Sequence record: AP029161.1
Origin: a plasmid
Length of the DNA stretch: 64,000 nt
Strand: one strand, 5' to 3'
Shown here: one piece after another, positions 6,446 through 55,543 of the stretch
Numbering within the stretch: position 1 is the stretch's first letter
Layout of the letters: each line of letters begins with the position of its first letter
Program-made: the position numbers and the translations under genes
The notes under the pieces: model-generated
Told to the model about the DNA's origin: nothing
Databases searched by the model: none
Seen by the model: only the letters and a program-made list of their open reading frames with translations

Positions 6446-6706
6446 ATGTTCTTACATTCAAGAATATTTATTTTATCTTTATTTACTTCAATATTTTTAT
6501 CAACTATTTATTTAATAATTAGTTGCATAAAAGTCTCTTTTGATGTTCAACTTTTTAGACCTGACTATTTAAAATATTTATATTTTAATTTATTATTTTT
6601 TATACTAATTATTTCTTCAATTTATTCATTCGTGATATTTTGTAAAAGAAGAAGAGATAAAATAATTCTAAAAAATAGAAAAAAATTTAATGATGATTAT
6701 AACTAA
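6446..6706 (+). CDS. small membrane protein (two hydrophobic helices)
   Basis: Translation is mostly hydrophobic. Confidence 0.35.
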   Translation: MFLHSRIFILSLFTSIFLSTIYLIISCIKVSFDVQLFRPDYLKYLYFNLLFFILIISSIYSFVIFCKRRRDKIILKNRKKFNDDYN

Positions 6707-8959: not shown

Positions 8960-10060
8960 TCATTTTATAAACCGACTATACAGCTCTGATATTTTTCCAC
9001 CGCTTTGAAGAAAAAATGAATTTTTTTCGTTGCTATTTTCATGAATAAAATATTTGTATTTGTTTGTCTTATTTTTAAAATCATTTTTTAACTCATACTC
9101 AGCATCTTCTCTTGAATCAAAGTACTCAATAAATTCTGAAATATTTTCTACTCCGTGCTGAGGATAGGTTGAGTTAATCATTTCCAAAAAAAGATGTTTT
9201 AAAGAATTATTAATATAAAAATAAGAAGATACATATTCTCTTCTATAATATTTACTTTCATCTTTTTTAACCTGCAAAATAGAAGGAAGAGGAATGCCAA
9301 ACCTACCACCATCACACCATACCAAAATCAATTCACCAATTTTGGTTTCTTTGTATTTAATTGTTAAAATGTCGGTGTAAGATTTCTGATCGTTAAAAAC
9401 TAAAACCCAATTTTCAAAATATTCTCTATTAAATTTACTTTTCTCAGAAATTATTGAAAAATTAGGATCTGGTTCATAATAAAAATGCAGTTTAGTATCA
9501 TTTACATAATTGTATTTCCAATTATTTTTATCTTTAAGATAAGTCATTATTTTTTCATTTGGAGTTTTGTCGATATTAAATCTTTCACGGTACATGTCTT
9601 CTATTTGTTTAGGAGTTGCGCTTCCATTCTTTGGTGTATTGCTGCTGCCAAGTCTCGTGTAAACTACACCTGCTCTAATTGTATCTTTTCCTTGACCATA
9701 GTCTTGCGTTAGAAAATAAGGTTTATGATTTATGTTTTGAATTTGAATAATATCTATAGGATTATCTCTGTAATTTAAAGCAAATAACTTTATATTAGGA
9801 AGATTATTTAATCTTGCATTTTTTACTAAGTCCATTAAGTCATTTTCTTTTTTTCTCTTAATATCATTTTTAATATCAAAGAAATTTTTATCGTCATCAA
9901 CGCCAAAAATAAGATATTTATACTTGCTATCAGTTTTTGAATTTGCAAGACATAATATGTCATGAATTAAATCTGAATTATTTTTATGATATTCTCTTTT
10001 AAAATCTATAAATTCACATTCTTGATTATTAATCAATTGCTTAATTTCTTCGTGATTCAT
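8960..10060 (-). CDS. AlbA_2 / Schlafen-like (divergent AAA) DNA-binding domain protein
   Basis: N-terminal pattern EFIDFKREY..LANSK..YLIFGVDDD typical of the AlbA_2 domain. The C-terminal ~200 aa are unassigned. Confidence 0.55.
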   Translation of the reverse strand: MNHEEIKQLINNQECEFIDFKREYHKNNSDLIHDILCLANSKTDSKYKYLIFGVDDDKNFFDIKNDIKRKKENDLMDLVKNARLNNLPNIKLFALNYRDNPIDIIQIQNINHKPYFLTQDYGQGKDTIRAGVVYTRLGSSNTPKNGSATPKQIEDMYRERFNIDKTPNEKIMTYLKDKNNWKYNYVNDTKLHFYYEPDPNFSIISEKSKFNREYFENWVLVFNDQKSYTDILTIKYKETKIGELILVWCDGGRFGIPLPSILQVKKDESKYYRREYVSSYFYINNSLKHLFLEMINSTYPQHGVENISEFIEYFDSREDAEYELKNDFKNKTNKYKYFIHENSNEKNSFFLQSGGKISELYSRFIK

Positions 10061-10159: not shown

Positions 10160-10624
10160 ATGAAAAAGCAAACTAAAAAAATAAAAAACCCAAAAGGATC
10201 TGGTCGAAAAAAACTATTTCAAGAAAAGTATCACGAAGAAATTATTCAGACCATGAAAAAAGGCCAAGGAGTTTCATTTTTTGCAGCTAAGATAGGAGTT
10301 TCAAAACAAACCATCTACAACTGGATTAACGAAAATGTAGAATTTAAGGAATCATTTGAAATTGCTCAGACAGCATGCCAAGCATTTTGGGAGAATTTGG
10401 CTTTAAATAATGCAGTAACAGCAAAAGGAAATGGGAATCAAATACAATACCAAATGAGTAAAAGATTTAGAGATGACTATGCTGATTCTTCTCAAATAAA
10501 TATTTTTAACTCTAATAATCAAAATGTAAATAGATCTATAAAAGATATGACAAGAGAAGAACTAGAAGCATATGAAAAAGATTTACTTCAAAAGTTGAAT
10601 TTAGAAAGCAATAATGAGCATTGA
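10160..10624 (+). CDS. terminase small subunit-like HTH protein
   Basis: Basic N-terminus with HTH (GVSKQTIYNWINEN). It lies immediately upstream of terL and overlaps it. Confidence 0.5.
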   Translation: MKKQTKKIKNPKGSGRKKLFQEKYHEEIIQTMKKGQGVSFFAAKIGVSKQTIYNWINENVEFKESFEIAQTACQAFWENLALNNAVTAKGNGNQIQYQMSKRFRDDYADSSQINIFNSNNQNVNRSIKDMTREELEAYEKDLLQKLNLESNNEH

Positions 10625-12029
10625 TATTCAAGAAAGAATTGCAATTCTTGAAAAGCTAAAAAAGATAAAAGAAAGAAAAAAAGAGCAAGATGATTTTCTA
10701 TCCTTCTGTATAAAAAGTTTTCCCAGATATAAAGCTGGTTGGGTCCATGAAGAAATTTGTAAAAAGTTAGAAAAATTTGCTCATGATGTTTATCTTGAAA
10801 AATCTCCTAGACTGATGATCTTTATGCCACCAAGACATGGAAAATCTTTTTTAGTTAGCGAAAGATTTCCTGCTTGGGTTTTAGGTAAATACCCTTATTT
10901 TGAATTTATTTCTGCAACATATGGAAAATCTTTAACACAAGGCTTTTCAAGAAAGTGCAGAAATTTAATTCACTCAAAATGGATAAAAGAAATATTCCCT
11001 AACTTTGACTTAAAGAAAGATAGTAAATCAGTTGATTTTTGGGAAACAACTTATGGTGGAGCTTTCATCGCAACTAGTATTGGTGGATCAGTAACTGGTA
11101 AAGGCGCACACATTTTATCAATTGATGATCCTCATAAAGGTATAGAAGAAGTTTTATCAGAAGTGATGAGAAACAAAACTCATGATTGGTATAAAACAGA
11201 TGCTTTTACACGTCTTTTACCTGGCGGTGGAGTAATTTTAACTCTTACGAGATGGCACGATGATGATTTAGCAGCAAGAATATTAGCAGAAGATACGGAT
11301 AATGAATGGGAAGTAATTTGTTACCCAGCGATAGCTACTGAAGATGAAGCGCATAGGAAAAAAGGAGAAGCATTACATCCAGAACGTTATCCTTTAAAAA
11401 TGCTTCAAAAGCTTTTAAAAACCCTTGGTTCGTTTTTCTTTAATGCTCTCTATCAACAGGACCCAGTGCCTGCTTCTGGAACAGTATTTAAAAAAGAATT
11501 TTGGAGATTCTATAATGAGCGATTTACTTTTTACGACAAAATTATTCAGGTTTGGGATTTAAGTTTTAAGGGTGACGAGAAAAGCGACTATACTGTGGGG
11601 CAAGTTTGGGGCAAAAAAGGAGCAAACTTTTATTTACTCGATCAAGTACGAGGTCAATGGGAATTTACTCAGCAAATTGAACAAATAAAAATGTTATCAA
11701 AAAAATATCCACTTGCATATTCAAAATACATAGAAGAAAAAGCTACGGCGACAGCGGTTATTTCTACACTCAAAAAAGAAATTACAGGTTTAATTCCATT
11801 CAATCCAAAATCTGATAAATACTCACGAGCTTTAGTTGCACAGCCTCCACAACAAGCAGGAAATATTCATCTACCTAACCCTCAACTAAATCCTTGGGTA
11901 AACGATTATATTGATGAACATTCTCGTTTTCCAAAAGGCAAAAATGATGATCAAGTCGATTGTACAAGTTTGGCGATGATTCAATTAAATAATAATGGGC
12001 TGGAGCATTTAAAAGCTTTGGTTTCTTAA
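10614..12029 (+). CDS. terminase large subunit
   Basis: ATPase motifs PPRHGKS and ILSIDDPHK, coupling motif LTRWHDDDL, and C-terminal nuclease Asp cluster GKNDDQVDCT. Confidence 0.85.
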   Translation: MSIDIQERIAILEKLKKIKERKKEQDDFLSFCIKSFPRYKAGWVHEEICKKLEKFAHDVYLEKSPRLMIFMPPRHGKSFLVSERFPAWVLGKYPYFEFISATYGKSLTQGFSRKCRNLIHSKWIKEIFPNFDLKKDSKSVDFWETTYGGAFIATSIGGSVTGKGAHILSIDDPHKGIEEVLSEVMRNKTHDWYKTDAFTRLLPGGGVILTLTRWHDDDLAARILAEDTDNEWEVICYPAIATEDEAHRKKGEALHPERYPLKMLQKLLKTLGSFFFNALYQQDPVPASGTVFKKEFWRFYNERFTFYDKIIQVWDLSFKGDEKSDYTVGQVWGKKGANFYLLDQVRGQWEFTQQIEQIKMLSKKYPLAYSKYIEEKATATAVISTLKKEITGLIPFNPKSDKYSRALVAQPPQQAGNIHLPNPQLNPWVNDYIDEHSRFPKGKNDDQVDCTSLAMIQLNNNGLEHLKALVS

Positions 12030-12859
12030 ATTTTAAATCCGAAATGCTTAAATGCTTTTTCTAGTAAATTCTTTTCATCTTCGGTTAGATTATTTTCTAA
12101 AATGTAGTTGCTAAATTTTTCGCTAGTAAATTTTTTACTTTCTTTTTGGGGAACGCGTTCCCCAGTCAGCCCACAAATTAAATTAAGCTCATCGATTAGT
12201 TTATCATCGCTTTCCCATTTTTTCTTGGAAATATTACAAAGAGAACGAAGGCTGAATTTTTCAGGGAACTCTTTGATTAACTCTCTTGCTTTTATTGGCC
12301 ACTGACCAACTTTTATTATATTTTTAATATATTTTTTATCTCGACTAAATTTTTTCGCTATGTCGTCAGCATCCCATCCTTGCGCAACTAGATCAGCGTA
12401 GCCCTCAGCTACATCAATTGGATGCAAGTCTTCACGTAGTAAATTTTCAATTAAAGCATGTTCAGTTCGTTTTGAAGAATTAGATGAGTAAACTTTAAGA
12501 TTAGCTTTAATTTTTTCAATACCAAGTTCTTTGCATGCTAAGATTCTTCTATGACCAGCGACAGCAATTAGTTCAAAATCATCACCATCAATGTTTCTCC
12601 TAACCTCAACTAGAACTGGCTGGATCACTCCCTCACTTGCAATACTATTCTTTAAATCCAAAAATTCAGGTTTACTAATATCAATTCTGTTTCTAATATT
12701 TTCATTTAATTTTATCTGATTTACGTTTAATGCCACTGTTTTATTTTCTTCAGCAGCTTTTTCATAAAGTAAAACAGTATTTAGTCTATCAGAATTAGAA
12801 ACAACGCTAGCAAATCTACTTAATTTTTCAGCTTCAATCGCTTGACTAATAGTACTCAT
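12026..12859 (-). CDS. parB: ParB-like partition protein
   Basis: ParB-box motifs GHRRILACKELG and ENLLREDLHPID. It lies downstream of parA and overlaps it by 4 nt. Confidence 0.8.
   Translation of the reverse strand: MSTISQAIEAEKLSRFASVVSNSDRLNTVLLYEKAAEENKTVALNVNQIKLNENIRNRIDISKPEFLDLKNSIASEGVIQPVLVEVRRNIDGDDFELIAVAGHRRILACKELGIEKIKANLKVYSSNSSKRTEHALIENLLREDLHPIDVAEGYADLVAQGWDADDIAKKFSRDKKYIKNIIKVGQWPIKARELIKEFPEKFSLRSLCNISKKKWESDDKLIDELNLICGLTGERVPQKESKKFTSEKFSNYILENNLTEDEKNLLEKAFKHFGFKI
12148..12163. promoter_or_regulatory. 16-bp perfect palindrome GGGGAACGCGTTCCCC (candidate parS copy inside the parB 3' end)
   Basis: Identical to the copy at 13810..13825. A GC palindrome of this kind is very improbable by chance in AT-rich DNA. 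Confidence 0.5.
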
Positions 12860-13737
12860 ATTTCAAGATCCTCTATTTCGATAGAATTTAAACTGTAATT
12901 TTCTTTCTTAATTTCTAATTTAGAAGTTGCTCCTGTAATTTCTTTCTGTGCTAAATCAATCTGTTTTTGAACTTCTTCAGCTAGGCTCAAATATGCTTTT
13001 GAAATTGGGCTTTTTTCTTTATAAATAATTAGTGCTTGATGTTTCATCGATGCACCATAAATCATTTGCGAAAATGGAATAATAGTTTCAAAAATGTGGA
13101 TATCATTTTCATTACCTATTTTTCTTAGAAGCTTTTCACCTGCTAATTGGAATGCGCTTTTTTTATCGAATTTCTGAATTACACATCCAAGCATTTTTAG
13201 ATTTGAATTGTAGTATTGTTTTATTTTTTCGGCATTGCCAACAACCATTGCTAGCCCGTCAATCACGTCGTTTTCAGCAAACATTGGGACCAAGTAAAAA
13301 TCACTCTCGCGAAGTGCTGACTGAAAAAGGCAATCAGGATTCGGATTTGTATCAATGATGACAAAATCATAACTATTGCGAACATCACTTAAAACATCTG
13401 CTAGCAAAAAAAGTTGTTCGGGCTTTCCTGTATGACGTAAAACTATTTCCTCTAAAGCTGTCGAACTTGGCAGTAAATCTAAATTCTCTACATTTGTTTT
13501 CACTGCAAACTTTTTAAAATTAACTTTTTTTAAAATTGCATTAGCTACAGATTGTTCTGATTTTAATTCACGACTACGAACATTCAACAATTCAGTAGCA
13601 TTAGCTTGATAATCGAGGTCCACCAAAAGAACTTTTTTTCCTGAATAAGCAAGGCATGAAGCTAAATTAACAGCACATGTTGTTTTTCCAGAACCTCCCT
13701 TCTGAATTGTGACCGTTATAATTTTTCCCATTCTCAT
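12856..13737 (-). CDS. parA: ParA partition ATPase (type Ib)
   Basis: Deviant Walker A KGGSGKTT. Confidence 0.85.
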   Translation of the reverse strand: MRMGKIITVTIQKGGSGKTTCAVNLASCLAYSGKKVLLVDLDYQANATELLNVRSRELKSEQSVANAILKKVNFKKFAVKTNVENLDLLPSSTALEEIVLRHTGKPEQLFLLADVLSDVRNSYDFVIIDTNPNPDCLFQSALRESDFYLVPMFAENDVIDGLAMVVGNAEKIKQYYNSNLKMLGCVIQKFDKKSAFQLAGEKLLRKIGNENDIHIFETIIPFSQMIYGASMKHQALIIYKEKSPISKAYLSLAEEVQKQIDLAQKEITGATSKLEIKKENYSLNSIEIEDLEI

Positions 13738-13809
13738 TCTCCTTTAATAAAATTTTTAATTAAAAATATTTTATTAAATTTTCATGTGATTAAAAGAGTC
13801 AAAAAAAAT

Positions 13810-13825
13810 GGGGAACGCGTTCCCC
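13810..13825. promoter_or_regulatory. 16-bp perfect palindrome GGGGAACGCGTTCCCC (candidate parS upstream of parA)
   Basis: Lies 73 bp upstream of the parA start codon. Confidence 0.55.
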
Positions 13826-13896
13826 TAATTTTACTAACTAAACGTTTAAATTTAATTTGTATATAGTTCCACTAATTTAATTTATAAGTAAACATT

Positions 13897-14550
13897 TTAG
13901 TTGAACATTCTTCCAGTTTTTTGAATATTTTTTTCTACTTCTTTTGCCTGAAGTGCTAATTGTTCAATTATTTCTTGATGAGGTCTATTTTTAAATTTAT
14001 CTATTACAGCTCTTCGTTCAGGATTATCAGGTGGTAGAACAGTTAGTATAACAGCTGCCATATTCTCCATATTTCCTTCTAATTGCTTAACCTTTTCCTC
14101 TAACTTAGATACTCTTTCAACATCTGCTTTATCGTTAATTTTAACATCCAATTTTGTAATGTCTTCAACTGTTGCAACTGTTGATCTAGAAAGTCTCTCT
14201 CTATTTATGTAGTTCAAAACGCCCGATGATGGAGCAAAGTAATTTTTTTTGTAAATGAAATTTGGATCATTAGGTTTAACTTTCCAAACTAAAACTCCTT
14301 TAAGTATAAGTTTCTCCCTTAGCGAATCAAAAGATTGTCCTTCTGAAATTAAACCAGCTCTTTCAAAATCATGTCGATAAAGCAAAACAAATTCTCCATC
14401 TCTTTTTTCTAATGGAGCTTCAACAAAAGCGTTTAGTAAAAAATGAGCTAGTTTCGATGCACTTTCAATTTTTTTTCTTCGTAAAAATTGTTCCAAGCTT
14501 CCATAGACCTTATATTTACCATTTACAGCCATGTTACTTCGTCCTTCCAT
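13897..14550 (-). CDS. putative replication initiator (Rep). Assignment is by context only.
   Basis: Gene lies immediately downstream of the iteron array and upstream of parS-parAB. The protein itself has no recognisable motif, only a C-terminal coiled coil. Confidence 0.35.
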   Translation of the reverse strand: MEGRSNMAVNGKYKVYGSLEQFLRRKKIESASKLAHFLLNAFVEAPLEKRDGEFVLLYRHDFERAGLISEGQSFDSLREKLILKGVLVWKVKPNDPNFIYKKNYFAPSSGVLNYINRERLSRSTVATVEDITKLDVKINDKADVERVSKLEEKVKQLEGNMENMAAVILTVLPPDNPERRAVIDKFKNRPHQEIIEQLALQAKEVEKNIQKTGRMFN

Positions 14551-14670
14551 AGTAGATAAATGACTAGGAAAAATATTACCATTTCATTTTTTTTTGGTCT
14601 AGCGTAGTTAGTTAATTTCTGACTGTGAGTAATGTAACATTCGCTAATTTAAATGTTGTTACTATGGATT

Positions 14671-14843
14671 TACTACGAATTTACTACGCTATAATTTTAA
14701 GCTACTACGAATTTACTACGCTAAAGTAACAGATCGTAGTAAATTCGTAGTATGAAATTTTAATAACTATTTAATATTATTAAAAATACTAGTTTATGAG
14801 TGCGTAGTAAATTCGTAGTAAATTCGTAGTAAATTCGTAGTAG
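14671..14843. repeat. iteron-like array of TACTACGAATTT (11-12 bp period) repeats
   Basis: Two direct 19-mers TACTACGAATTTACTACGC, one inverted copy, then 3.5 tandem inverted units CGTAGTAAATT. Confidence 0.65.
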
Positions 14844-15242
14844 ATTTTTTTTAAAAGGTGCTATTTTATTAAATAAGTCTGCTATAGTAATGTACGGAAA
14901 AACACCTATGCTCAACGATTAGGGCAACATCAAAAAAATACGATCCCAATGATATTTTGAATCGATGTAGCTTGTGTCCGCAGTTTAAGCAATCTGAAAA
15001 TTAAAAATTTGTGGGCGGCCACATGGTGCGAAATTTTCTTTGAAAATTATCGCACCTATCTTATCGCTAGTACAAGCATGTTAGTACTAGCGTCTTGTAG
15101 TCATGATCCTAGAAAAAAATAGTCGCCAGAGTATTTTAAACTTATAGTAAGTGAGATTTTAAAAATAGATGTTCCAATAGTCATCAGATTTTTTAATGAG
15201 CCTTAAAACGGCTTAAAATGATTTTGTTTATTTTTTATGCAT

Positions 15243-15671
15243 TTAGCGTTTTTTTAAAACAAGTTCCCATTCATAGCCCAGACCTTCAACGACTTTATTA
15301 AACGTAGAAATAGAAGGTTCACGCTTTCCATCTTCGTATTGTGAATAAGATGTTTTTGCGCAATTCAATTTGTCGGCAATTTTAGATTGTGAGAAATGTT
15401 CTTTATTCCTAATACTTTTGAATATTGTGGATGTAGCTAGTTTGAAGTTTTTAAACTTAATGTAAAATCGAACATCATCAACAATTTCAAGAGTAAAATC
15501 ATCATCCTTAAATTTTTCTTTCGAATTACAATTGAACATTAAAAGTAATCGATTGTTTAGTTTGCTAAAAAGATCTTCAACATCAGCCGTAGAGATTTCT
15601 AAAACATCAAGCAGTTCAATTTTTGCAATCCATCGTTCATTTTTAAAATAGTATTGGCCTTCCAAGTTCAT
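15243..15671 (-). CDS. XRE-family HTH repressor (CI-like) with C-terminal HTH
   Basis: SQSKIADKLNCAKTSYSQYEDGKREPSISTFNKVVEGLG helix-turn-helix. Lies divergent to the 15731 gene with a palindromic operator between them. Confidence 0.6.
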   Translation of the reverse strand: MNLEGQYYFKNERWIAKIELLDVLEISTADVEDLFSKLNNRLLLMFNCNSKEKFKDDDFTLEIVDDVRFYIKFKNFKLATSTIFKSIRNKEHFSQSKIADKLNCAKTSYSQYEDGKREPSISTFNKVVEGLGYEWELVLKKR

Positions 15672-15692: not shown

Positions 15693-15708
15693 ACAGTCAA
15701 TTGACTGT
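15693..15708. promoter_or_regulatory. perfect 16-bp palindrome ACAGTCAATTGACTGT (candidate operator of the 15243 repressor)
   Basis: Centred in the 59-bp divergent intergenic region. Confidence 0.55.
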
Positions 15709-30451: not shown

Positions 30452-33400
30452 ATGACAATAATTCAAGATTTGCAGATTAAAATTGACTTTATACTAAATG
30501 AAAAGCAATTAGAAAATCTTGAAAAAATACTTCATAATATTAAGGCGGATTCTTTAAGTTTAGGAAAGAGTCATGAGGAAATAAATAAAAAGCTAAAAGA
30601 AACTGCTAATATTTATGCTAAAGAGATATTTAGTAAAAGAGAAAATTTAAGCTTAAATAGAAAGCTGAGTGACTCTCAACATAAATTCAACGAAGCTATC
30701 AAACAAACAAATAAGCTTATTGCTTCTAGTAAAGATTTAACTCAAGACCAGTTAAAACAATTTCAAATTAAAGCCCCATCAGCTCCTAGAATTCCTCGAC
30801 AAAAAAAAGAAGTAGTTGTCGAAGAAATTAAAAAAGTAATTCAAGAAAAAGTTCAACCTAAAGTTGAAAAAAAAAGAAGATCTTTGCCTGATGCTAAACT
30901 AAGGATTCAGGAACTCGAAAATAATCTTTTTAGCGGATTTTTTAATAAAAGCTATGGTGTAACTCCAACTTTTCTAAAAAACATAGAAAATCAAAAACCT
31001 AAAGATAATACATTAAATTTAGGAAGTAATTTAAATAAAAATATCAACGCAGCTAATAGCAGCGCAATCAATTTGAAATCAAATTTAAATTCATTGAATT
31101 CTATTTTTTTAAATACGACTAAAATTAAAGTTCCTCTTCCACAAATTCCAATTCAAAATCCTGTACAAAATATTCCTATTGCTCCAAAAGTACCCAATTT
31201 TGTATTAGAAAAAAATTCAGGTATTGTTAAGGATTTAAATTTAAAAATAAATTTTGACTTAAATGATCAACAATTAAAAGCATTAGAAAATACAATTCAT
31301 AATATAAAATCTGAAGCTTTAGGTTTAGGTCATAGTCATGAAGCTATTAATAAAAGTATTCAAAAAAATGCGAATTTGTATGCAATTGCAACATTGGATG
31401 CAGAAAATAAGTTAAATCAATTAAGCAACTCTGATTATGAATTTGCAGAAGCTTTAAAACAATCTAATTTAGGGATGTATGAAGATATCAAATTAAAAAG
31501 CATACAAGCTAAAGAAGGAAGCAAAGTATATCAAATTAATACAAAGATTATTGAATCTCAAAAAAGATATAATGATTTAAAAAGACAAGGCGCAAATTTC
31601 ACTTCGTTTTCTGACTTTCTTAAGAAAGAAGCTTTAGTTGAAAAGCAAATTCAAGACCAGAATAATAGAAATTTATTGAAAAAAATTGTTCTATATAAAG
31701 ATTTATCTACTCAAGTTGCAAGTACAGGAAATAAAATAGCTCAGTCTAATCAAACAATAAATAAGAGTTTAACTAGTGCAAATTATAGAATAAATAATTT
31801 TTCAGATAATCTAAGAAATTTTACTTCTCAATTAATGTTTGTAAATCCTGCAACAATGTCCTTTGCTTTTGCTCTCCAAGGCTTTGGGCAAATGTTTAAA
31901 TCTTTATCGGTTATTGCTCAAAATTCTACCGATATTGTTAAAAAATCTATTGCTTCCTTGCAACAAATTATTTTTGGATTGGGAGTTGCTGCCGCTGGAG
32001 CTGCAGGCAGTGTAGCTTATATTTCACTTTCAACAGCTAAATATGCTGAAGATATTAAAAAGAATTCTGAAATTATTGGTATGAGCGCAGACGAGTATCA
32101 GAGAATTTCTTATGCTGCAAAAATTAGTGGAATAAATCAGCAGGAAATGGCCAGTTCTATGTCTGGTTTATTTCAAGCATTAAAAACTAATAAAGATGGA
32201 ACTCTTTCAGAAGTTCAAGAGAGGTTTATAAGTTTAGGAGTTGCATTAAAAAAGTCCAATGGTGAAGCAAGAAATGTATCTGAAATTCTTAGTGATGTAG
32301 CAGATAAATTTTCTAAAATAGATTCTCCAGTTAAAAGAGCAATATTAGCGGCTGAATTATTTGGTGAAGGCGGTAGAAAAATGCTGCCATTTTTAAGCGA
32401 AGGTTCAGAAAAATTAAGACAACTAGGAATTGAAGCTGAATTGACTGGAAATGTTTTATCTGATGAACAAGTTACTAAATTAGTTATTTTGCAAAATAGT
32501 TATCGCCGTTTAACTTCAATGTTGCATGGATTAAAATTATCAATTGGTATGAGTTTAATCCCATTTATGAGTAATGTTATTCGTAGACTTTCTGATTGGT
32601 ACGAAGCTAACGGGATGATTATACGTCAAAATCTATCTTCATTTTTTACAAATGTTTCTGATAGCCTTGGGCGTTTTGCTCAATTAATAAGAAACACATA
32701 TAATGTAATAACTGGATTTGCGGAAGGATTGGATAAAATAGGAATTTCTCTTTCATTTATTTCAAAAATATTATTACTTTTTGCAAGCTGGAAATTATTT
32801 GGAATTATCGGAAATATTTTATTAGGAAAATCAACTACAGGATTTTTTGGATTTATAGCCTCCAAATTTAGATGGCTTTATGCTGTTATCGCTGGGTTTT
32901 TTACTAGCATAGCTACATTTGCAACAACTCTAATTGCTGCATTTGGCTCAGGCGGATTAACTGGAGTATTAATATTTTTGGGAGATGTGATTTTAGGAAT
33001 ATTGGGGGCATTATTTACTGTTCCTGTTTTAATTGGCCTTGCTGTAGCTGGAATATTTTTATTAATCCAAGATTTTCTAACATGGATGGAAGGTGGAGAT
33101 TCTTTATTTAAGCGGATGTTTGGTGATTGGGAGCCAGCGAAAAAGAAGATAGATGAATTTATTGAAAATGTTAAACTATTTTTTAAAAATATGTGGCAAG
33201 ATATAAAGAACTTCTTCATAGAAAAATTTATAAATCCTATTAAAGAACATGGTTTAGTCGGGATTGTAGAAGCATTTGGAAATTTATTTATAAAAATATG
33301 TGAACTAATTGTAAAATTCACTTTATATTTAGAAGATAAATTCGTTGAAATATGTTCTTCATTATTTGATATTATTGCTGAATACTCGCCTAAGTTATTT

Positions 33401-34634: not shown

Positions 34635-35480
34635 ATGCAACCAGCATTTAGCTACTATGGCGGCAAGTGCCGCATGGCAAAAGAGATTTTAAAATTGACA
34701 CCCAATCACGTAACTTACGTGGAACCTTTTTGTGGTTCTGCTGCAGTTTTATTCAAAAAGAATTACATAGAGCCATCAAGTAAATATCAGGAGGTTATTA
34801 ATGATAGTAATGGGTATTTAATTAATTTTTATCGTCAATTAAGAAACAACGGAGATCAGTTAATTGAAAAACTTGAACAAACTCTTTATTCAAAAGCTGA
34901 GCATGAACTAGCAATTAAAATTGCTAAAAATCTTGATCAGTATTCCGAGCTTGAGAGAGCATGGAGTTTCTATGTTAATATTCAGCAATCATTTTCTAGT
35001 TCTTTAAATAAGGTTTGGAATATTTCCAGATGCTCAAAGAGCATGTCGTTTACATGGGTAAATAAGTTAAAAAATTTAAGAGAAATTCACTCAAGGCTTT
35101 TAGAGCTTACTGTAGAAAACGAAGATGCAATTAAATGCATTCAGAAATGGGATGATCATGGGGTCTTTTTTTATGTAGATCCTCCTTATATTAATACTGA
35201 TTGTGGGCATTATAAAGGTTACACTGTAGAACAGTATAAAGAGCTTATTTATACTTTGGATCACTGCAAAGGTTCTTTTATTTTATCATCATATGAGAAT
35301 GAATACTTGCCTAAAAAATGGAAAAAAGAGTTTCATGAACTGAAAGTAACATTTAATTCAAAAATAAAAGATAAGTCTCGGACAGAAGTTTTAAGTTTCG
35401 TAGATCGTTCTCGCTATATTAAAGATGAAAAAATCAAGGAAAATGCTAAAAAATTTGGGGAGTTATTAAGGGCTGTATAG
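34635..35480 (+). CDS. dam: N6-adenine DNA methyltransferase (Dam / D12 class)
   Basis: Motif I VEPFCGSAAV and motif IV DPPY (YVDPPYINTD). SD taggagg. Confidence 0.8.
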   Translation: MQPAFSYYGGKCRMAKEILKLTPNHVTYVEPFCGSAAVLFKKNYIEPSSKYQEVINDSNGYLINFYRQLRNNGDQLIEKLEQTLYSKAEHELAIKIAKNLDQYSELERAWSFYVNIQQSFSSSLNKVWNISRCSKSMSFTWVNKLKNLREIHSRLLELTVENEDAIKCIQKWDDHGVFFYVDPPYINTDCGHYKGYTVEQYKELIYTLDHCKGSFILSSYENEYLPKKWKKEFHELKVTFNSKIKDKSRTEVLSFVDRSRYIKDEKIKENAKKFGELLRAV

Positions 35481-44009: not shown

Positions 44010-45614
44010 TTATTCATATATTTCTTTAATAAAATCTTTAAATGCTTCAGCTATTTCATATAGAGTAATACTACTATTTAATTCACTTTTTTGATGAAGA
44101 ATTTCTTGATTTAAATTTAAAATTTTATTTGATTGTTCAATAATTTTTTCTACACCAAAATTTTTTAAATTATCTTTATTTATAAATAAAATCATCATCC
44201 AATTATATATATTTACATACTCAATTTTACTAAATATTGATTCAATTTTATACTCCCTGTAAAATTCATTTAAAACAAACTCTCTAAATAGATAATATTC
44301 TACAGGAAAACCAAAGAAATTACATTTTTTATGATATACAATAGTGATAAAGTAGAGTTCTTTAAATTTTAAATAGTGATCGAAATTTTCTTTTACTATG
44401 TTATTAATTAAAGAATTCCAAAAATTATGAATTATACTTTGATTATTAAAATCTTTAAGATTTGTATCTCCTAATCTTAGATGGTTACATAAAACCTTTA
44501 AATTTTCTTCTAGTTCAAATTCATTTAAATGTATTTTTTTGGAAATTCTCCTTATTAAATCATTTAAAGTATTAAATTTTACTAGCATACTATAGCTATG
44601 GTAATCAGAATTGCTATTATTTAAATTAAAATATAGCATAAATTCAAAGTAATCAATTATTTCTATAATCTCTCTTGTGCTAAATATTTTTAAAAACTTA
44701 AGCTCATCAGGAAGAGATTTTGTTTCATTTAAAATAAATGGAAACATGTTGTTATTAATTTTTTTATGCAAAATATTATTTAATATCTCAGGAATTATAT
44801 CTAATTGAAAATATTTCGCATTTAATTTTTCGATCATTTCAATAGCATTGTTTTTATTGTCATTTTTCGAGTATCCAAAGGGGACTATGTATTTTCTCCT
44901 GTATCTGAGTAAATTTGATAATAAGGCCCAACGGTCTTCTTCTTTTAATGAACTTCGATCAAGATCATCTAAAATTATTACTTTAATTTTGTTATCGTAC
45001 CATAATTCAATAGATTCAAAAAAACAATTATAAATGTATGATATTTTTAATTTATTTGTTGCAAAAATAAAAGGAATAATTAAAAAAATGAAATAAATAA
45101 TTGTACTGTATGATGAATAATCAAAACCGACAATTTTTTTAAAATATAATTCATTATAAAATATAATCAAAATTGATAATATAAAATAATAAATGGAAAA
45201 AAATATTTTCCAGTGTTTTGGTGCTATATGTGAATACGCTTCATCTAAAGTAGAAATTCCAAAAAAAGAAATTTTCTTTTTATAATATCTACTATTCAAG
45301 CATAATTCATGAACTACTCTATCTGAAAGAGCGGATTTACCCGCACCCCATTCACCAATTATAAACACTGTTTTATTATTTCTATCTAAAAAAGCTTTAA
45401 TTTCACTAATTTTATTAGTATGATATTTGAATTCTATAAAATCCGAAGGAGTATTATTTTTATCTATTTCATTCCAAAATAGATAAAAAGATTCTTTCAA
45501 TATTTCATAGTATGTATATATGTTAAAAATTCTTTTGATTTTATTAGTACAATTATCTTTTAATTTAATATATTTTTCAGATTTTATCATACAAATTATT
45601 TCACCAGTGTACAC
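44010..45614 (-). CDS. KAP-family P-loop NTPase
   Basis: Walker A GEWGAGKSAL and Walker B VIILDDLDR are separated by two inserted TM helices (FFSIYYFILSILIIFY and IIYFIFLIIPFIFA), the hallmark of the KAP family. Confidence 0.7.
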   Translation of the reverse strand: MYTGEIICMIKSEKYIKLKDNCTNKIKRIFNIYTYYEILKESFYLFWNEIDKNNTPSDFIEFKYHTNKISEIKAFLDRNNKTVFIIGEWGAGKSALSDRVVHELCLNSRYYKKKISFFGISTLDEAYSHIAPKHWKIFFSIYYFILSILIIFYNELYFKKIVGFDYSSYSTIIYFIFLIIPFIFATNKLKISYIYNCFFESIELWYDNKIKVIILDDLDRSSLKEEDRWALLSNLLRYRRKYIVPFGYSKNDNKNNAIEMIEKLNAKYFQLDIIPEILNNILHKKINNNMFPFILNETKSLPDELKFLKIFSTREIIEIIDYFEFMLYFNLNNSNSDYHSYSMLVKFNTLNDLIRRISKKIHLNEFELEENLKVLCNHLRLGDTNLKDFNNQSIIHNFWNSLINNIVKENFDHYLKFKELYFITIVYHKKCNFFGFPVEYYLFREFVLNEFYREYKIESIFSKIEYVNIYNWMMILFINKDNLKNFGVEKIIEQSNKILNLNQEILHQKSELNSSITLYEIAEAFKDFIKEIYE

Positions 45615-46370: not shown

Positions 46371-46816
46371 ATATCAACTACTTGTCTACGATCATCAACG
46401 CAAAAAATCACGTCATATTTTGGCTGAATGTGCAAATTGTAGATCTCTTGCTTAATCACTGCATCCTGTCGAAAATCTTGATCTTTTCTCATTAGCAGTA
46501 AATCGTAATATTGATCATGGGTGGCTAGCCATTCTTCAGTTATTTTTCTTGTAAATTCATTTCTACCAGTAACTAATATTATTTTGTGAGAATCTTTAAA
46601 ACTTGAAATTATTGAAGCGCACCAAGTGTTTAACTTATCTTGAATTATATTTTCATCTTTTGAAAATGATTTCCAATCTTTTTTAGTTCCTGCAATAAAG
46701 CATCTTCTGTGCTCACAATCTGCTAAAGTTCCATCCAAATCGATTATAATTGCTTTTTGTTTCATAATTTTTCCTTTTATTAATACATTGGGCTTTGTTG
46801 ATATAGAGCACTCCAA
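46319..46816 (-). CDS. HAD-superfamily phosphatase (polynucleotide 3'-phosphatase / 5'-nucleotidase-like)
   Basis: Motif I IIDLDGTLAD, motif III K, motif IV VDDR. Confidence 0.65.
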   Translation of the reverse strand: MECSISTKPNVLIKGKIMKQKAIIIDLDGTLADCEHRRCFIAGTKKDWKSFSKDENIIQDKLNTWCASIISSFKDSHKIILVTGRNEFTRKITEEWLATHDQYYDLLLMRKDQDFRQDAVIKQEIYNLHIQPKYDVIFCVDDRRQVVDMWRKLGLTCLQCADGEF

Positions 46817-47487
46817 AATGTTTTATGAATATTATCTTTCAATAATTGATAATCAAATCTATCACTTAAAAATTTTCCATCATCATCAATAGCTTTATAA
46901 ATTAAATGTTTCCATTCTAGTTTTTTAAATTTGGTCATTAAATAAGCTGTATTATCATTAAGAGACCATCTTGATCCAACATGAATAAAAATACCACCTT
47001 TTTTCATGTGTTTTCTTATTAACTGATTTAAGCATTGTTTCATACTATCTCTTATTAATTTATTATTTAGTTTGTGCTCATCATTAATAAAATCATCTGT
47101 TATAATTAAGTCATATCTAGCTCCTTTTAATAGGGATAAATTGCTGTATGAATTAAAATTTAAATTTGTACATGAGAAATTTTCACGTAATTTTATCTTA
47201 CTTAATATTTTAAATTCTCTAAATATTTTTTCAGAAGAATAATTATTTGTCCCTACTACACAAATATTTATTTTATCATTTTTAGAATATAAATAACTTG
47301 GTAAGTATTTACAGAATAATTCAGTTTTTAAATGCCTTGGAGGCAAGTCAAATATTAAATACGATTTATTTTTGAATAAATTTGTTTCAATTTCATAATC
47401 TATCTTTGATAATATATCATCAATATAAGGATACATTTCAAGATTTATAAATTTTTTAACAAAATAATTTCTAAAATTGTTTTCCAT
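46780..47487 (-). CDS. terminase large-subunit ATPase-domain-only paralog
   Basis: PPRHLKT, YDLIITDDF, IFIHVGSRWSLND and ALYQQSP align with terL PPRHGKS, ILSIDDP, ILTLTRWHDDD and ALYQQDP. The protein ends 5 aa after the Q motif, with no nuclease domain. Confidence 0.5.
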   Translation of the reverse strand: MENNFRNYFVKKFINLEMYPYIDDILSKIDYEIETNLFKNKSYLIFDLPPRHLKTELFCKYLPSYLYSKNDKINICVVGTNNYSSEKIFREFKILSKIKLRENFSCTNLNFNSYSNLSLLKGARYDLIITDDFINDEHKLNNKLIRDSMKQCLNQLIRKHMKKGGIFIHVGSRWSLNDNTAYLMTKFKKLEWKHLIYKAIDDDGKFLSDRFDYQLLKDNIHKTFWSALYQQSPMY

Positions 47488-48768: not shown

Positions 48769-49767
48769 ATGGATACACAACGTCAGTGGAACGATTCTAA
48801 GAATCAGAAAACACCAATAATAAGTGAAAAAGACTTAAAGGAATTATCAAAAAGATATTCTGAATATTCAATTGAAAAATTAGATGCTTTACTCAAAACA
48901 ATAATTGTAAAAGAAGTTACACTAGCTGAAGTAGAAGCTTTTTTATACATTGCTAAACAATCTGGATTATGTCCATTCAAAAAACAAATTCAGCTAATAG
49001 ATTTTAAGGGAACTAAAAGACCATATACTACTATAGATGGCTTTAGAGTATTGGCTGAAAGAAGTTCGCAATATGTAGGTCAGACAACTCCATTATTTTG
49101 TGGGAAAGATAAAATATGGACTGAAGTATGGACGGAAAATACTCCGCCACTTGCAGCTAAAGTGGGAATTCTTCGTAAAGGATTTTTGGAACCTATTTTT
49201 GCTATTGCAAAATATTCTTCGTACAACAGCGATACTCCTACTTGGAAAAAAATGCCAGATGTCATGTTAGCAAAATGCGCTGAAGCATTAGCTTTTAGAA
49301 AAACATTTCCAGATAATATGTGTGGTTTATACACACTTGAAGAAATGACTCAAGCATCTAGTGAATTTAGTAATGAAATTGAATCACAAAATACAGAAAT
49401 AAAATCAATTACACCTAAGAGTAAAAAGACAGAAATTATTTCGGATGTGATTGAAGTTAAAACAGAACCTGAAAAAATAGTTAGTGTTCCTGAAGATGTT
49501 GTTAAAGCTAAAAATAGTTTAGAAAAAAAAGTGCAGTCTATAGACTGCAATGAAGATTATGAAGCCGTTTATAATGGCTGCGATGTACACAGAAGAAAAT
49601 TATGGGATTTATTTAGGGAGTTAAAAATATTTTCAGAAGTAAAAAATGACCCTAAAAAAACCGTTGAAGTATCTAAATATTTTGCAGAAAGATGCTTTGG
49701 CGTGCCACTTAATCAATTGCAAGAACATTTATTATCGCTGCAAGAAGAATATTTAAATGCTTGTTAA
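48769..49767 (+). CDS. recT: RecT-family single-strand annealing recombinase
   Basis: TIDGFRVLAERS..WKKMPDVMLAKCAEALAFRKTFPD..GLYTLEE core. Confidence 0.8.
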   Translation: MDTQRQWNDSKNQKTPIISEKDLKELSKRYSEYSIEKLDALLKTIIVKEVTLAEVEAFLYIAKQSGLCPFKKQIQLIDFKGTKRPYTTIDGFRVLAERSSQYVGQTTPLFCGKDKIWTEVWTENTPPLAAKVGILRKGFLEPIFAIAKYSSYNSDTPTWKKMPDVMLAKCAEALAFRKTFPDNMCGLYTLEEMTQASSEFSNEIESQNTEIKSITPKSKKTEIISDVIEVKTEPEKIVSVPEDVVKAKNSLEKKVQSIDCNEDYEAVYNGCDVHRRKLWDLFRELKIFSEVKNDPKKTVEVSKYFAERCFGVPLNQLQEHLLSLQEEYLNAC

Positions 49768-52151: not shown

Positions 52152-52279
52152 GACATCTCTCCTAAATTTTTAAAATTATATTGCTAAAAAAATCGTTATG
52201 CTTTATAAGCATATTCAACACTTAGCATTATCAAGGAGATAAGTGAAGTGGTTTAAAAAAAAAGAGGCGCACATTTTGA

Positions 52280-53841: not shown

Positions 53842-54030
53842 TTTTTTTCGTATTTTACCACTACCTGATGGTAAAATACCCTTAAAAAAAGTCAGACAAA
53901 AAAATCGACACATGAGATTTTTTAAATTACATTTTTATCAGAACCCTTTTATAAAATCGTTCCTTTAGGAATAGCCGAAGTAAAAAGTAAAAGGGTTCAC
54001 AAGAAACCATTCCCTTTGGGAGTACCGAAA

Positions 54031-55045: not shown

Positions 55046-55058
55046 GGAATTTTAAAAT

Positions 55059-55525: not shown

Positions 55526-55543
55526 TTATAAAAGGATTTTAAA

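What the first reader, a model, noticed from the sequence alone, without database searches (positions are those of the whole stretch)
12026..14843. Plasmid-type maintenance cassette inside a phage genome: iterons, Rep candidate, parS palindromes, ParA-ParB
Reading leftward on the minus strand: an iteron array (14671..14843), a putative Rep gene (14550..13897), a perfect 16-bp GC palindrome GGGGAACGCGTTCCCC (13810..13825), parA, parB, and a second identical palindrome inside the parB 3' end (12148..12163). Two identical 16-bp GC palindromes flanking parAB in about 28% GC DNA are best explained as centromere (parS) sites. Together with the absence of any integrase or transposase, this argues the element replicates as an extrachromosomal phage-plasmid, as P1 and N15 do.
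Basis: partly seen in the sequence, partly recalled or inferred. Interest (0 to 1): 0.75.

Follow-up and report, generated by a model that had tools for sequence, protein, structure and literature searches.

The report
Phage-plasmid maintenance region: iterons, Rep candidate, ParABS
This stretch is the plasmid-style upkeep kit (a partition system with its DNA docking sites, plus a likely replication origin and its binding protein) of a tailed phage that lives as a free 68-kb circle in the human isolate Pigmentibacter ruber; the kind of element is well known, but its origin-binding protein belongs to an undescribed family.

Summary
The window is 64 kb of pGTC16762-2, which is published as a 67,953-bp circular plasmid of Pigmentibacter ruber. 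It carries a complete myovirus-like gene set and no detectable integrase, so it is a phage-plasmid.

ParA and ParB are confirmed. The 16-bp palindrome is very likely parS. It is an invariant 16-nt island in parB genes down to 54% identity. More distant ParBs carry different palindromes in comparable positions.

The "Rep" has no Pfam, NCBIfam or PDB match. Its model (pLDDT 90) shows one winged helix followed by a coiled coil. In all 12 family loci examined, the gene follows its own array of short tandem repeats. These have an 11-12-bp period in 11 loci, and their sequence changes with the protein. Iteron binding is therefore well supported; replication initiation is inferred.

A second, phage-type replication module lies at 52-57 kb. 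Relatives have the terminase genes between Rep and par, so the contiguous cassette comes from a local inversion.

Verdict: a new member of a known kind, with a candidate new initiator family. Moderate interest.

The parts
12026..12859 (-). parB: ParB/Spo0J-type centromere-binding protein, 277 aa, with a ParB_N domain, an HTH domain and a GHRRILA (GxxRxxA-type) motif
   Evidence: Pfam ParB_N 1.1e-10 and HTH_ParB 2.1e-6. TIGR00180 scores 75 bits, above its cut-off of 58.45. The best PDB relatives are Spo0J, ParB and Noc, and the alignment includes the AGHRR motif.
12148..12163 (.). parS-2: 16-bp palindrome GGGGAACGCGTTCCCC inside the parB 3' end (codons T-G-E-R-V-P-Q)
   Evidence: An invariant 16/16-nt island in parB genes of 91%, 77% and 54% identity, with diverged and indel-bearing flanks.
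12856..13737 (-). parA: short ParA/Soj-type Walker ATPase, 293 aa, with the deviant Walker A motif KGGSGKT and no N-terminal HTH
   Evidence: Pfam AAA_31 1.2e-44 and CbiA 1.8e-21. phrog_164 ParA-like 1.3e-50. Sequence.
13797..13802 (-). Candidate -35 hexamer (TTGACT) of the par promoter, 7 nt downstream of parS-1 on the par strand (inferred)
   Evidence: TTGACTCT is conserved at the same distance from the palindrome in the Fluviispira relative, while the 7 nt in between differ.
13810..13825 (.). parS-1: the same 16-bp palindrome, between the rep stop and the parA start
   Evidence: Conserved upstream of parA in L008. It also resembles a weak terminator hairpin followed by a T-run on the - strand.
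13897..14550 (-). Rep candidate: 217-aa winged-helix plus coiled-coil protein of an unannotated family; probable iteron-binding initiator
14660..14846 (.). Iteron array and probable plasmid origin: 10 copies plus 1 degenerate copy of the 11-bp unit TTTACTACGAA in both orientations. Clusters are at 14660-14692, 14701-14722, 14733-14754 and 14801-14846.
14755..14800 (.). 46-bp AT-rich spacer (about 12% GC) between iteron clusters; candidate DNA-unwinding element (inferred)
15243..15671 (-). XRE-type HTH regulator (142 aa) that travels with the iteron-Rep module
   Evidence: Pfam HTH_3 1.8e-9. Adjacent to the iterons and the Rep homolog in L001, L002, L008 and L011.
15693..15708 (.). Palindrome ACAGTCAATTGACTGT in the divergent HTH/late-operon promoter region; probable operator of the HTH protein (inferred)
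   Evidence: The same or a variant palindrome lies just upstream of the HTH gene in L001 and L002.

Best explanation
The region is the plasmid-state maintenance region of a circular phage-plasmid, pGTC16762-2 of Pigmentibacter ruber. It has two functional units.

(1) A ParABS partition system. ParB is a Spo0J-type protein with the GxxRxxA motif of the CTP-binding fold. It loads at two identical 16-bp palindromic parS sites that bracket the operon, one abutting the par promoter and one inside the parB 3' end. The short Soj-type ParA ATPase then segregates the ParB-DNA complexes. Binding at the promoter-proximal site probably also autoregulates parAB.

(2) An origin of the iteron type. A 217-aa protein binds about ten 11-bp iterons immediately upstream of its own gene. 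The protein has an N-terminal winged helix, a central coiled coil and a C-terminal helical hairpin with a conserved PPDTxERR motif. The iterons form oppositely oriented clusters spaced one helical turn apart and include a 46-bp AT-rich stretch. Binding would open that stretch and recruit host replication proteins to replicate the prophage as a low-copy plasmid. Binding would also repress the protein's own promoter.

A conserved XRE-type HTH regulator next to the iterons is probably part of the control circuit. A separate O-like/DnaD-like module beside the CI-type repressor at 51.5-57.3 kb would serve lytic replication, as in P1, where oriR/RepA and oriL/RepL are separate.

Shown here: all sequence features, the ParA and ParB identities, conservation and co-variation of the palindromes and of the iterons, and the phage gene content. 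Taken from the literature: the circular extrachromosomal state. Inferred: ParB-parS binding, iteron binding by the winged-helix protein, and above all its role as replication initiator.
For: Replicon
- The Rep protein is 100% identical to nr GTC16762_32560.
- pGTC16762-1 carries locus tags 30790-32290, so tag 32560 falls in the next replicon.
- The genome paper lists pGTC16762-2 as a circular plasmid of 67,953 bp and 27.75% GC. The window is 27.58% GC.

Phage content
- TerS, TerL and portal.
- Mu-F-like protein, DUF2213, major capsid and a DUF3383 protein (provisionally read as the tail sheath, Pfam name gives no function).
- Dit-like protein, baseplate hub and baseplate J.
- CI-like S24 repressor, RecT, SSB and an exonuclease.
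- No integrase or transposase domain in any ORF of at least 180 aa.

parS
- Exactly two copies in the window; 0 of 100 shuffles reach this.
- Both copies are conserved in the Fluviispira vulneris relative, where ParB is 91% identical.
- The intragenic copy is a perfect 16-nt island at 77% and 54% ParB identity.
- A 35%-identical ParB in a 35.6-kb phage contig is flanked by two copies of a different palindrome, TGCTGACCGGTCAGCA. A 37%-identical ParB has three copies of GTGGATCATATGATCCAC between parA and parB.
- The palindrome is absent from the co-resident plasmid.

Rep and iterons
- The core is enriched tenfold and clustered.
- All 12 family loci examined, with protein identity from 100% down to about 25%, have short tandem repeats within about 250 bp upstream of the gene; the period is 11-12 bp in 11 of them.
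- The repeat sequences differ between loci: TTTACTACGAA, TTTAACTAACG, GTGCTAACGCG, TTTGTCCCAAA, GTGAGAGTTTT, TGTCCCACATT, TTTTTTCGCACG, GCGAGCA-type, GTGCGGAC-type and ACGTAC-type.
- The module also occurs where the fetched flanks show no terminase or virion genes: the 140-kb plasmid pGTC16762-1, which has no annotated Rep and no MOB-suite replicon type; a contig with Tn3 and CRISPR-Cas; and a 75.7-kb contig with parAB and a ParM-like gene.
- The model shows a winged helix.
Against: - No experiment or coverage data were available, and the GenBank record itself could not be read.
- The Rep candidate lacks the two-winged-helix architecture and the Pfam signatures of the classical iteron initiators.
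- No DnaA box lies near the iterons.
- The element has two other proteins with phage replication-initiator signatures, which could suffice for replication.
- Most distant family members are in 30-50-kb phage contigs with no par genes in the parts seen. The family may therefore be a phage early-region origin binder or regulator rather than a plasmid-state Rep.
- parS-1 also resembles a weak intrinsic terminator.
- 3,953 bp of the replicon were not seen.
Confidence: 0.7

Rival explanations
1. The winged-helix protein and its repeats are not the plasmid-state replicon. They are an autoregulated transcription factor, a phage early or lytic origin binder, or a copy-control element. On this reading, plasmid replication is driven by the O-like/DnaD-like proteins at 52280-53584 and 56303-57262.
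For: The PHROG replication-initiation hits belong to the other two proteins (phrog_11233 3.8e-16; phrog_270/391 about 1e-7), and the Rep candidate has none. Distant family members head early operons of ordinary-sized phage contigs, next to Gp157, RecT and terminase, with no par genes seen. The fold is a generic winged helix shared with MarR-type repressors.
Against: Ten tandem sites at one-turn spacing, in inverted clusters around an AT-rich core, are unusual for an operator. The module occurs in three contexts (L001, L002, L006) whose fetched flanks show no terminase or virion genes. In five loci it is linked to partition genes or sits on a large plasmid-like contig. pGTC16762-1 has no other annotated or typed replicon.
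Confidence: 0.2
2. The 11-bp array plus the winged-helix protein is a centromere and adaptor of a second partition system (like R1 parC/ParR or TubR/tubC), or a packaging-recognition (pac) site working with the adjacent terminase.
Against: No conserved NTPase partner follows the gene. The downstream neighbour is parA here, TerS in L008 and L011, and unrelated genes elsewhere. The module exists without terminase in L001, L002 and L006. In the window the inversion separates it from the terminase with no sign of decay.
Confidence: 0.06
3. The two palindromes are not centromeres. They are a terminator hairpin (13810) plus a chance or coding-constrained copy (12148), or only an operator for par autoregulation.
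For: The terminator scan calls 13810-13825 on both strands, and the - strand copy is followed by T8. It lies right after the rep stop codon.
Against: The intragenic copy has no T-run, yet it is perfectly conserved at the nucleotide level through 54% protein identity, with an indel directly beside it. Divergent ParBs have their own paired or tripled palindromes at par loci. Two identical 16-mers have a chance expectation of 0.01.
Confidence: 0.05
4. The element is an ordinary integrative or lytic phage whose circularly permuted or induced genome assembled as a circle. On this reading parAB serves another role.
For: Circular assembly alone cannot distinguish a plasmid prophage from replicating phage DNA. 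3.9 kb were not inspected. Some phages carry par genes without a proven plasmid state (discussion in PMC7969092).
Against: No integrase was found in 94% of the replicon. A CI-type repressor indicates temperance. A full ParABS with conserved parS and an iteron module is shared with a genuine 140-kb plasmid. The F. vulneris relative is likewise a separate 63.4-kb contig of a 9-contig draft.
Confidence: 0.05

Closest known systems
Bacteriophage P1 plasmid-prophage maintenance region (repA with incC/incA iterons at oriR, parA-parB-parS; separate lytic oriL/repL)
   Same: A circular myovirus-type phage-plasmid. An iteron-bound initiator gene lies next to a parAB operon with a cis centromere. A distinct lytic replication module sits elsewhere. 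No integrase is needed. (P1 facts are established knowledge; the concept of the class is from PMC7969092.)
   Different: There is no sequence relationship. The Rep here is a single winged helix plus coiled coil with 11-bp iterons, whereas P1 RepA has 19-bp iterons. ParA is short and has no N-terminal HTH, so it is not type Ia. parS is a simple 16-bp palindrome present twice, not the single asymmetric IHF-dependent P1 parS. No similar DNA or Rep homolog was found in 50,697 phage records.
Chromosomal ParABS (Soj/Spo0J with 16-bp palindromic parS), including the B. subtilis parS located inside the spo0J gene
   Same: The best sequence relatives of ParB are Spo0J, ParB and Noc, with ParB_N, HTH and the GxxRxxA motif. 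ParA is a short Soj-like protein. parS is a 16-bp perfect palindrome, and one copy lies inside the parB coding sequence.
   Different: The palindrome sequence (GGGGAACGCGTTCCCC) is unrelated to the TGTTNCACGTGAAACA consensus. The system sits on a 68-kb phage replicon, with two sites bracketing the operon.
RK2/RP4 IncC-KorB (a ParB-family protein binding palindromic OB sites next to promoters)
   Same: A short ParA is paired with a ParB-family protein. The palindromic site abuts a candidate -35 hexamer, which suggests a combined centromere and operator function (inference).
   Different: There are only two sites, both local to the operon. No global regulon is evident, because the palindrome occurs nowhere else in the window.
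Classical iteron initiators (Rep_3/RepA/RepE/Pi; the RepA_N family of staphylococcal plasmids)
   Different: There is no Pfam or NCBIfam match. The protein has one winged helix plus a long coiled coil, not WH1-WH2. Iterons are 11-12 bp at one-turn spacing and in both orientations. No DnaA box was found.
R1 parC/ParR centromere
   Same: Ten 11-bp repeats in clusters upstream of an operon.
   Different: ParR is a ribbon-helix-helix protein and is partnered with ParM. Here the fold is a winged helix and there is no conserved NTPase partner.

Membership tests
Phage-plasmid (as defined in Pfeifer et al. 2021, PMC7969092) | Encodes the phage functions: packaging, virion structure and lysogeny control | tested here: met
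   TerS, TerL and portal. Mu-F-like protein, DUF2213, major capsid and a DUF3383 protein (read provisionally as tail sheath). Dit-like protein, baseplate hub and baseplate J. A 1170-aa ORF in the tape-measure position. S24 CI-like repressor.
Phage-plasmid | Encodes a plasmid partition system | tested here: met
   ParA and ParB by Pfam, PHROGs and NCBIfam. Conserved parS candidates.
Phage-plasmid | Encodes a plasmid replication initiator | tested here: inconclusive
   No known replicase family was detected. An iteron-associated winged-helix protein is shared with plasmid pGTC16762-1. Function is inferred only.
Phage-plasmid | Maintained as an extrachromosomal replicon | tested here: met
   This is indirect. 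The window is identified as pGTC16762-2, which a hybrid assembly reports as a circular 67,953-bp plasmid. Neither end of the window carries a recognisable host housekeeping gene: no tRNA or Rfam RNA, and no housekeeping domain among the ORFs of the first ~9 kb and last ~20 kb that gave a Pfam hit, though most of those ORFs gave none. Copy number and passage stability were not tested.
Phage-plasmid | No integration module required or present | tested here: met
   No Phage_integrase, Resolvase, rve or transposase hit in any ORF of at least 180 aa in the window. The 3,953 bp outside the window were not seen.
ParABS with a Spo0J-type (CTP-binding fold) ParB | ParB_N domain with the GxxRxxA motif, plus an HTH | tested here: met
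   Pfam ParB_N and HTH_ParB. AGHRRILA aligns to AGERRYRA of the T. thermophilus Spo0J structure 1vz0.
ParABS with a Spo0J-type ParB | ParA with the deviant Walker A motif KGGxxK[ST] | tested here: met
   KGGSGKT at residues 13-19. AAA_31 1.2e-44.
ParABS with a Spo0J-type ParB | Palindromic parS bound by ParB in cis | not testable with these tools
   Binding is not testable here. Comparative support is strong: the site is an invariant island and co-varies with ParB.
Type Ia partition (P1/F ParA-SopA) | Long ParA (about 390-400 aa) with an N-terminal HTH repressor domain | tested here: not met
   ParA is 293 aa, and the ATPase domain starts at residue 5. The SopA and RepA equivalog scores fall far below their cut-offs.
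Rep_3/RepA/RepE/Pi iteron initiators | Sequence membership (Pfam Rep_3 and related families) and tandem WH1-WH2 domains | tested here: not met
Iteron-type origin (functional class) | Multiple tandem initiator sites next to the rep gene, with an AT-rich stretch | tested here: met
   Ten copies of an 11-bp unit plus one degenerate copy, and a 46-bp spacer of 12% GC. Arrays are present in 12 of 12 family loci.
Iteron-type origin (functional class) | DnaA box(es) beside the iterons | tested here: not met
   No TTWTNCACA match in 13,700-15,250. The nearest is at 15340, inside the HTH gene. This feature is not universal among iteron plasmids.
N15-type linear phage-plasmid | Protelomerase with telomere site, and a linear replicon | tested here: not met
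   No protelomerase domain was found in the scanned ORFs. The record is reported as circular.
R1-type ParMRC | A ribbon-helix-helix adaptor and an actin-like ATPase next to the 11-bp repeat centromere | tested here: not met
   The fold is a winged helix. There is no ParM-like gene in the window cassette.

The most novel reading that the evidence does not exclude
The 217-aa winged-helix/coiled-coil protein is the founding member of an undescribed family of replication initiators. The family has about 136 clusters at 50% identity, almost all in metagenomic phage-sized contigs and Silvanigrellaceae replicons. Its members would fire origins built from 11-12-bp iterons at one-helical-turn spacing. 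The N-terminal specificity domain and the C-terminal PPDTxERR domain appear to be exchangeable modules. Phages, phage-plasmids and large plasmids would use the family interchangeably.
Probability: 0.5. Interest if true: 0.6.

Novelty: new member of a known kind. Interest (0 to 1): 0.45.

Why it matters
- In the searchable literature, no phage-plasmid is reported from Bdellovibrionota and none of the five papers combining Silvanigrellaceae with plasmid and phage concerns one. The genome paper calls the replicon simply a plasmid.
- The work defines a testable parS sequence and three ParB-parS specificity pairs.
- It identifies a compact rep-iteron fragment of about 1.5 kb that could serve as the basis of a shuttle vector for a genus now emerging as a human pathogen.
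- If the winged-helix protein is an initiator, it fills part of the known gap of plasmids and phage-plasmids that have no recognisable replicase.

Tried and rejected
- **Source record.** Reading AP029161 directly failed because the record is not in the collections. An exact look-up of the 217-aa ORF also failed, because the annotated protein starts at Met7.
- **DNA similarity.** The cassette matched only a terminase fragment in one phage and the HTH gene of pGTC16762-1.
- **Collection scans.** A genome-contig scan with ParB returned only distant Clostridia ParBs. A metagenome-contig scan with the Rep alignment found nothing. The 84-sequence alignment was too diverse for locus scanning.
- **Structure.** The first AF2 model, built from 8 close sequences, was unusable at pLDDT 50. 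The 84-sequence alignment fixed this. PDB profile searches returned only coiled-coil noise. Foldseek against PDB and BFVD gave nothing at E <= 0.001. The afdb50 library was unavailable.
- **GC skew.** Skew across the window and across the whole of pGTC16762-1 follows gene orientation and does not locate an origin.
- **RNA.** Rfam found no RNA family in the window, so no known antisense copy-control RNA was detected.
- **DnaA boxes.** None lies near the iterons.
- **Chromosomal homolog.** The degraded Rep homolog on a 730-kb contig sits in a frameshift-ridden assembly and was uninformative.
- **Palindromes as inversion end-points.** Rejected. The inverted block runs from TerS to the parA promoter, not from one palindrome to the other.

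Full report
**1. Observation**

All the described features are present.

- The 16-mer GGGGAACGCGTTCCCC occurs exactly twice in the 64-kb window, at 12148-12163 and 13810-13825. No further site appears at up to three mismatches. The chance expectation is 0.01, and no shuffle in 100 reaches two.
- The minus-strand ORFs are parB 12026-12859, parA 12856-13737 and the Rep candidate 13897-14550.
- The repeat array spans 14660-14846. Its unit is 11 bp (TTTACTACGAA).
- The 7-nt core TACTACG occurs 12 times in the window, 10 of them within 172 bp. The expectation for the whole window is 1.2.
- Four units face one way (14669-14722) and six the other (14733-14754 and 14801-14844). The last two groups are separated by a 46-bp stretch of about 12% GC.

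**2. What the replicon is**

The Rep candidate is 100% identical to the nr protein GTC16762_32560 of Pigmentibacter ruber. Plasmid pGTC16762-1 (AP029160) carries locus tags 30790-32290, so tag 32560 lies about 27 genes into the next replicon. This matches the gene's rank in the window.

The genome announcement lists pGTC16762-2 as a circular plasmid of 67,953 bp and 27.75% GC, from a Nanopore plus short-read Unicycler assembly. The window is 27.58% GC. The window is therefore 94% of that plasmid.

Its gene content is that of a complete temperate myovirus-like phage:
- TerS, TerL and portal.
- Mu-F-like head protein, DUF2213, major capsid and a DUF3383 protein, which I read provisionally as the tail sheath; the Pfam entry itself is a domain of unknown function.
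- A 1170-aa tape-measure-sized ORF.
- Dit-like protein, baseplate hub and baseplate J.
- An S24 CI-type repressor, RecT, SSB, Gp157 and an exonuclease.

No integrase, resolvase or transposase domain was found in any ORF of at least 180 aa. No tRNA gene and no Rfam RNA were found.

**3. Partition system**

ParA is 293 aa. It carries the deviant Walker A motif KGGSGKT and matches AAA_31 at 1e-44 and phrog_164 at 1e-50. It has no N-terminal HTH, so it is a short Soj-type ATPase and not a P1/F type Ia ParA.

ParB is 277 aa with ParB_N and HTH_ParB domains. It passes the TIGR00180 cut-off. Its nearest solved relatives are Spo0J, ParB and Noc. Its AGHRRILA aligns to the GxxRxxA motif of the CTP-binding fold.

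The parS reading rests on comparison with other par loci:

| Locus | ParB identity | Context | Palindrome |
|---|---|---|---|
| L008 | 91% | 63,363-bp contig of Fluviispira vulneris | Same 16-mer, both copies in the same places |
| L021 | 77% | Metagenomic contig | Same 16-mer inside the parB 3' end |
| L022 | 54% | Metagenomic contig | Same 16-mer inside the parB 3' end |
| L023 | 35% | 35.6-kb phage contig | Two copies of TGCTGACCGGTCAGCA bracketing parAB |
| L002 | 37% | 75.7-kb contig | Three copies of GTGGATCATATGATCCAC between parA and parB |

In a four-way nucleotide alignment, the 16 positions are invariant while the flanks diverge and carry an indel directly beside the site. Site sequence therefore tracks ParB divergence, while the association with the par operon is kept.

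The upstream copy sits 7 nt from a conserved TTGACT hexamer, and the bases in between are not conserved. This suggests that it doubles as an operator. That copy also resembles a weak terminator after rep. The intragenic copy has no T-run, so a terminator-only reading fails. The palindrome is absent from the co-resident plasmid.

**4. Rep candidate and iterons**

The protein has no Pfam, NCBIfam or meaningful PHROG match. It has no PDB sequence relative. It has no homolog in 50,697 phage records, and only one in 72,556 plasmids, on the sister plasmid pGTC16762-1.

An exhaustive profile search found 136 clusters in a library of 1.84 billion representatives. None of the roughly 20 looked up carries any name other than "hypothetical protein".

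With an 84-sequence alignment, AlphaFold gives a confident model with pLDDT 90.2. It shows an N-terminal winged helix (about residues 16-122), a long central helix (144-171) and a C-terminal helical hairpin carrying the nearly invariant PPDTxERR motif.

The informative evidence is again comparative. In every locus examined, the gene lies within about 250 bp downstream of tandem repeats whose sequence differs from locus to locus. The period is 11-12 bp in every locus except L018:

| Locus | Repeat unit |
|---|---|
| window | TTTACTACGAA |
| L006 | Near-identical to the window |
| L002 | TTTAACTAACG |
| L011 | GTGCTAACGCG |
| L008 | TTTGTCCCAAA |
| L001 | GTGAGAGTTTT |
| L017 | TGTCCCACATT |
| L030 | TTTTTTCGCACG |
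| L031 | GCGAGCA-type |
| L029 | GTGCGGAC-type |
| L018 | ACGTAC-type: two 25-bp tandem units plus dispersed copies, not an 11-12-bp array |

 This is 12 of 12 loci, with protein identity from 100% down to about 25%.

The module occurs in three kinds of context:
- Phage-plasmids: the window, L008 and L011.
- Ordinary-sized phage contigs: L018, L029, L030 and L031.
- Contexts whose fetched flanks show no terminase or virion genes. These are the 140-kb plasmid pGTC16762-1, which has no annotated replicase and no MOB-suite replicon type; a contig with Tn3 and CRISPR-Cas; and a 75.7-kb contig with parAB and a ParM-like gene.

I conclude that the protein binds these iterons (well supported). It most probably initiates replication there (inferred, about 0.55-0.65).

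**5. Context, and a correction to the "cassette" picture**

An XRE-type HTH gene (15243-15671) accompanies the iterons and Rep in five loci. It has its own conserved palindrome (15693-15708) in the region where it diverges from the portal-side operon.

In the relatives L008 and L011 the order is HTH, iterons, Rep, TerS, TerL and then the par genes. L011 carries a different system, a 264-aa ParA followed by a 107-aa protein. In the window, the block TerS-TerL-parB-parA is inverted.

The contiguity of Rep with parAB is therefore a local rearrangement. The maintenance functions are an ancestral, interleaved part of this phage lineage. They are not a plasmid cassette dropped into a phage.

The window also encodes two proteins with phage replication-initiator signatures, at 52280-53584 and 56303-57262, beside the CI-type repressor. 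These are the likely lytic module. They are also the main reason the Rep assignment is not certain.

**6. Mechanism proposed**

In lysogeny the circle would be replicated from the iteron origin by the winged-helix protein, which would dimerise through its coiled coil. It would occupy one face of the helix at one-turn spacing, and the AT-rich 46-mer would be the melting site. Occupancy of sites near its own promoter would give autoregulation.

ParB would load at the two palindromes and, with ParA, partition the copies. On induction, the O-like/DnaD-like module and the late genes would take over.

Only the sequence features and their conservation are shown here. All binding and function steps are inferred.

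**7. Comparison with known systems**

Functionally the closest system is the P1 plasmid-prophage region, with RepA and its iterons, ParABS and a separate lytic replicon. There is no homology to it, the ParA type differs, and parS is a simple palindrome.

The par system is closest to chromosomal Soj/Spo0J-parS, including the parS inside spo0J. In its promoter-proximal site it resembles IncC/KorB.

The Rep fails the membership tests for Rep_3/RepA-type initiators, while meeting the functional hallmarks of an iteron origin apart from DnaA boxes. The N15 and R1 ParMRC analogies fail their defining tests.

**8. Novelty and score**

Phage-plasmids with par and rep modules are common and well described (PMC7969092). 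This one is a new lineage in a phylum for which the searchable literature reports none. A search for phage-plasmid with Bdellovibrionota returned no paper, and the five papers that mention Silvanigrellaceae with plasmid and phage are unrelated to the topic. The source paper did not recognise it as a phage.

The part that is actually new is the iteron-binding protein family.

- Overall: new member of a known kind.
- Interest: 0.45.
- The reading that the protein is a new initiator family has probability about 0.5 and would merit about 0.6.

Noticed in passing
window 10160-13830, compared with L008:5044-8705 and L011:7615-10742: The four-gene block TerS-TerL-parB-parA is inverted relative to the Fluviispira vulneris relative and to a second 67.6-kb relative. 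In both relatives, Rep, TerS and TerL are co-directional and the par genes lie beyond TerL. L011 carries a different par system, a 264-aa ParA followed by a 107-aa protein.
   Followed up: partly
window 46780-47487 (-): A 235-aa paralog of the TerL ATPase domain only. It shares the PPRH.K and ALYQQ motifs and matches phrog_38 at 1.5e-17. It lies among the recombination and replication genes, far from the real terminase.
   Followed up: no
window 15693-15708 and 49532-49549; L001:12504-12519 and 6545-6560; L002:6692-6705: A CAGTC-N4-GACTG palindrome lies just upstream of the XRE-type HTH gene in three replicons and is probably its operator. A second variant copy lies inside recT in the window.
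   Followed up: partly
L001:11718-11794 (pGTC16762-1): The co-resident 140-kb plasmid has its own iterons (GTGAGAGTTTT) and, beside them, seven tandem 11-bp units TCCGTAGAAGA. These match the window's iteron TTCGTAGTAAA at 8 of 11 positions. The adjacent HTH genes of the two plasmids are 79% (aa) and 80% (nt) identical. This could be a recombination relic or a cross-talk or incompatibility determinant.
   Followed up: no
Rep family alignment A1 (P0003, P0004, P0005, P0008 against L001:10548-11201): The family is mosaic. In several close homologs the C-terminal ~60 residues (KIEKVAEYVLHQNPPDTPERKQIVVDNIDNLPKALELLAQQRK) match the C-terminus of the otherwise 29%-identical pGTC16762-1 protein. This implies domain swapping between the DNA-specificity half and the C-terminal half.
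   Followed up: partly
window 51489-57262: A second, phage-type replication and immunity region. It contains an S24 CI-like repressor (51489-52151, -), an O-like HTH_36 protein (52280-53584), a dUTPase that has an additional N-terminal HTH_17 domain (54016-54621), and a DnaD/replication-initiator-like protein (56303-57262).
   Followed up: partly
window 8960-10060 (-), 44010-45614 (-), 50309-51502 (+), 34635-35480 (+): Cargo genes: a Schlafen/AlbA_2 protein next to TerS, a weak nSTAND/KAP-like NTPase, a Vut_1 transporter fused to a GNAT acetyltransferase, and a D12 (Dam-like) adenine methyltransferase embedded among the tail genes.
   Followed up: no
L018:7899-8579; L029, L030 and L031 upstream regions: Distant members of the Rep family (about 25-30% identity) sit in 30-50-kb phage contigs, including a P22-like podovirus where the gene forms an island between the portal and head genes. 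In L029, L030 and L031 the gene lies behind 11-12-bp tandem repeats; in L018 the repeats are two 25-bp tandem units plus dispersed ACGTAC-type copies.
   Followed up: partly
L006:139-15926: A 74%-identical Rep homolog with near-identical iterons lies between a Tn3-family transposase and a type I-F-variant CRISPR-Cas locus (Cas6f-like, Cas7fv, Cas1) on a 16-kb contig.
   Followed up: no
L022:290-4370: A 54%-identical ParB with the same parS palindrome is followed by a bacterial-type topoisomerase (Toprim/Topoisom_bac) rather than a terminase. The parABS unit therefore moves between different kinds of element.
   Followed up: no
window 14847-15242: About 400 bp of relatively GC-rich non-coding DNA lies between the iterons and the HTH gene. 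It contains a terminator-like hairpin at 15197-15215 and has no Rfam match. It could encode a small regulatory RNA.
   Followed up: partly
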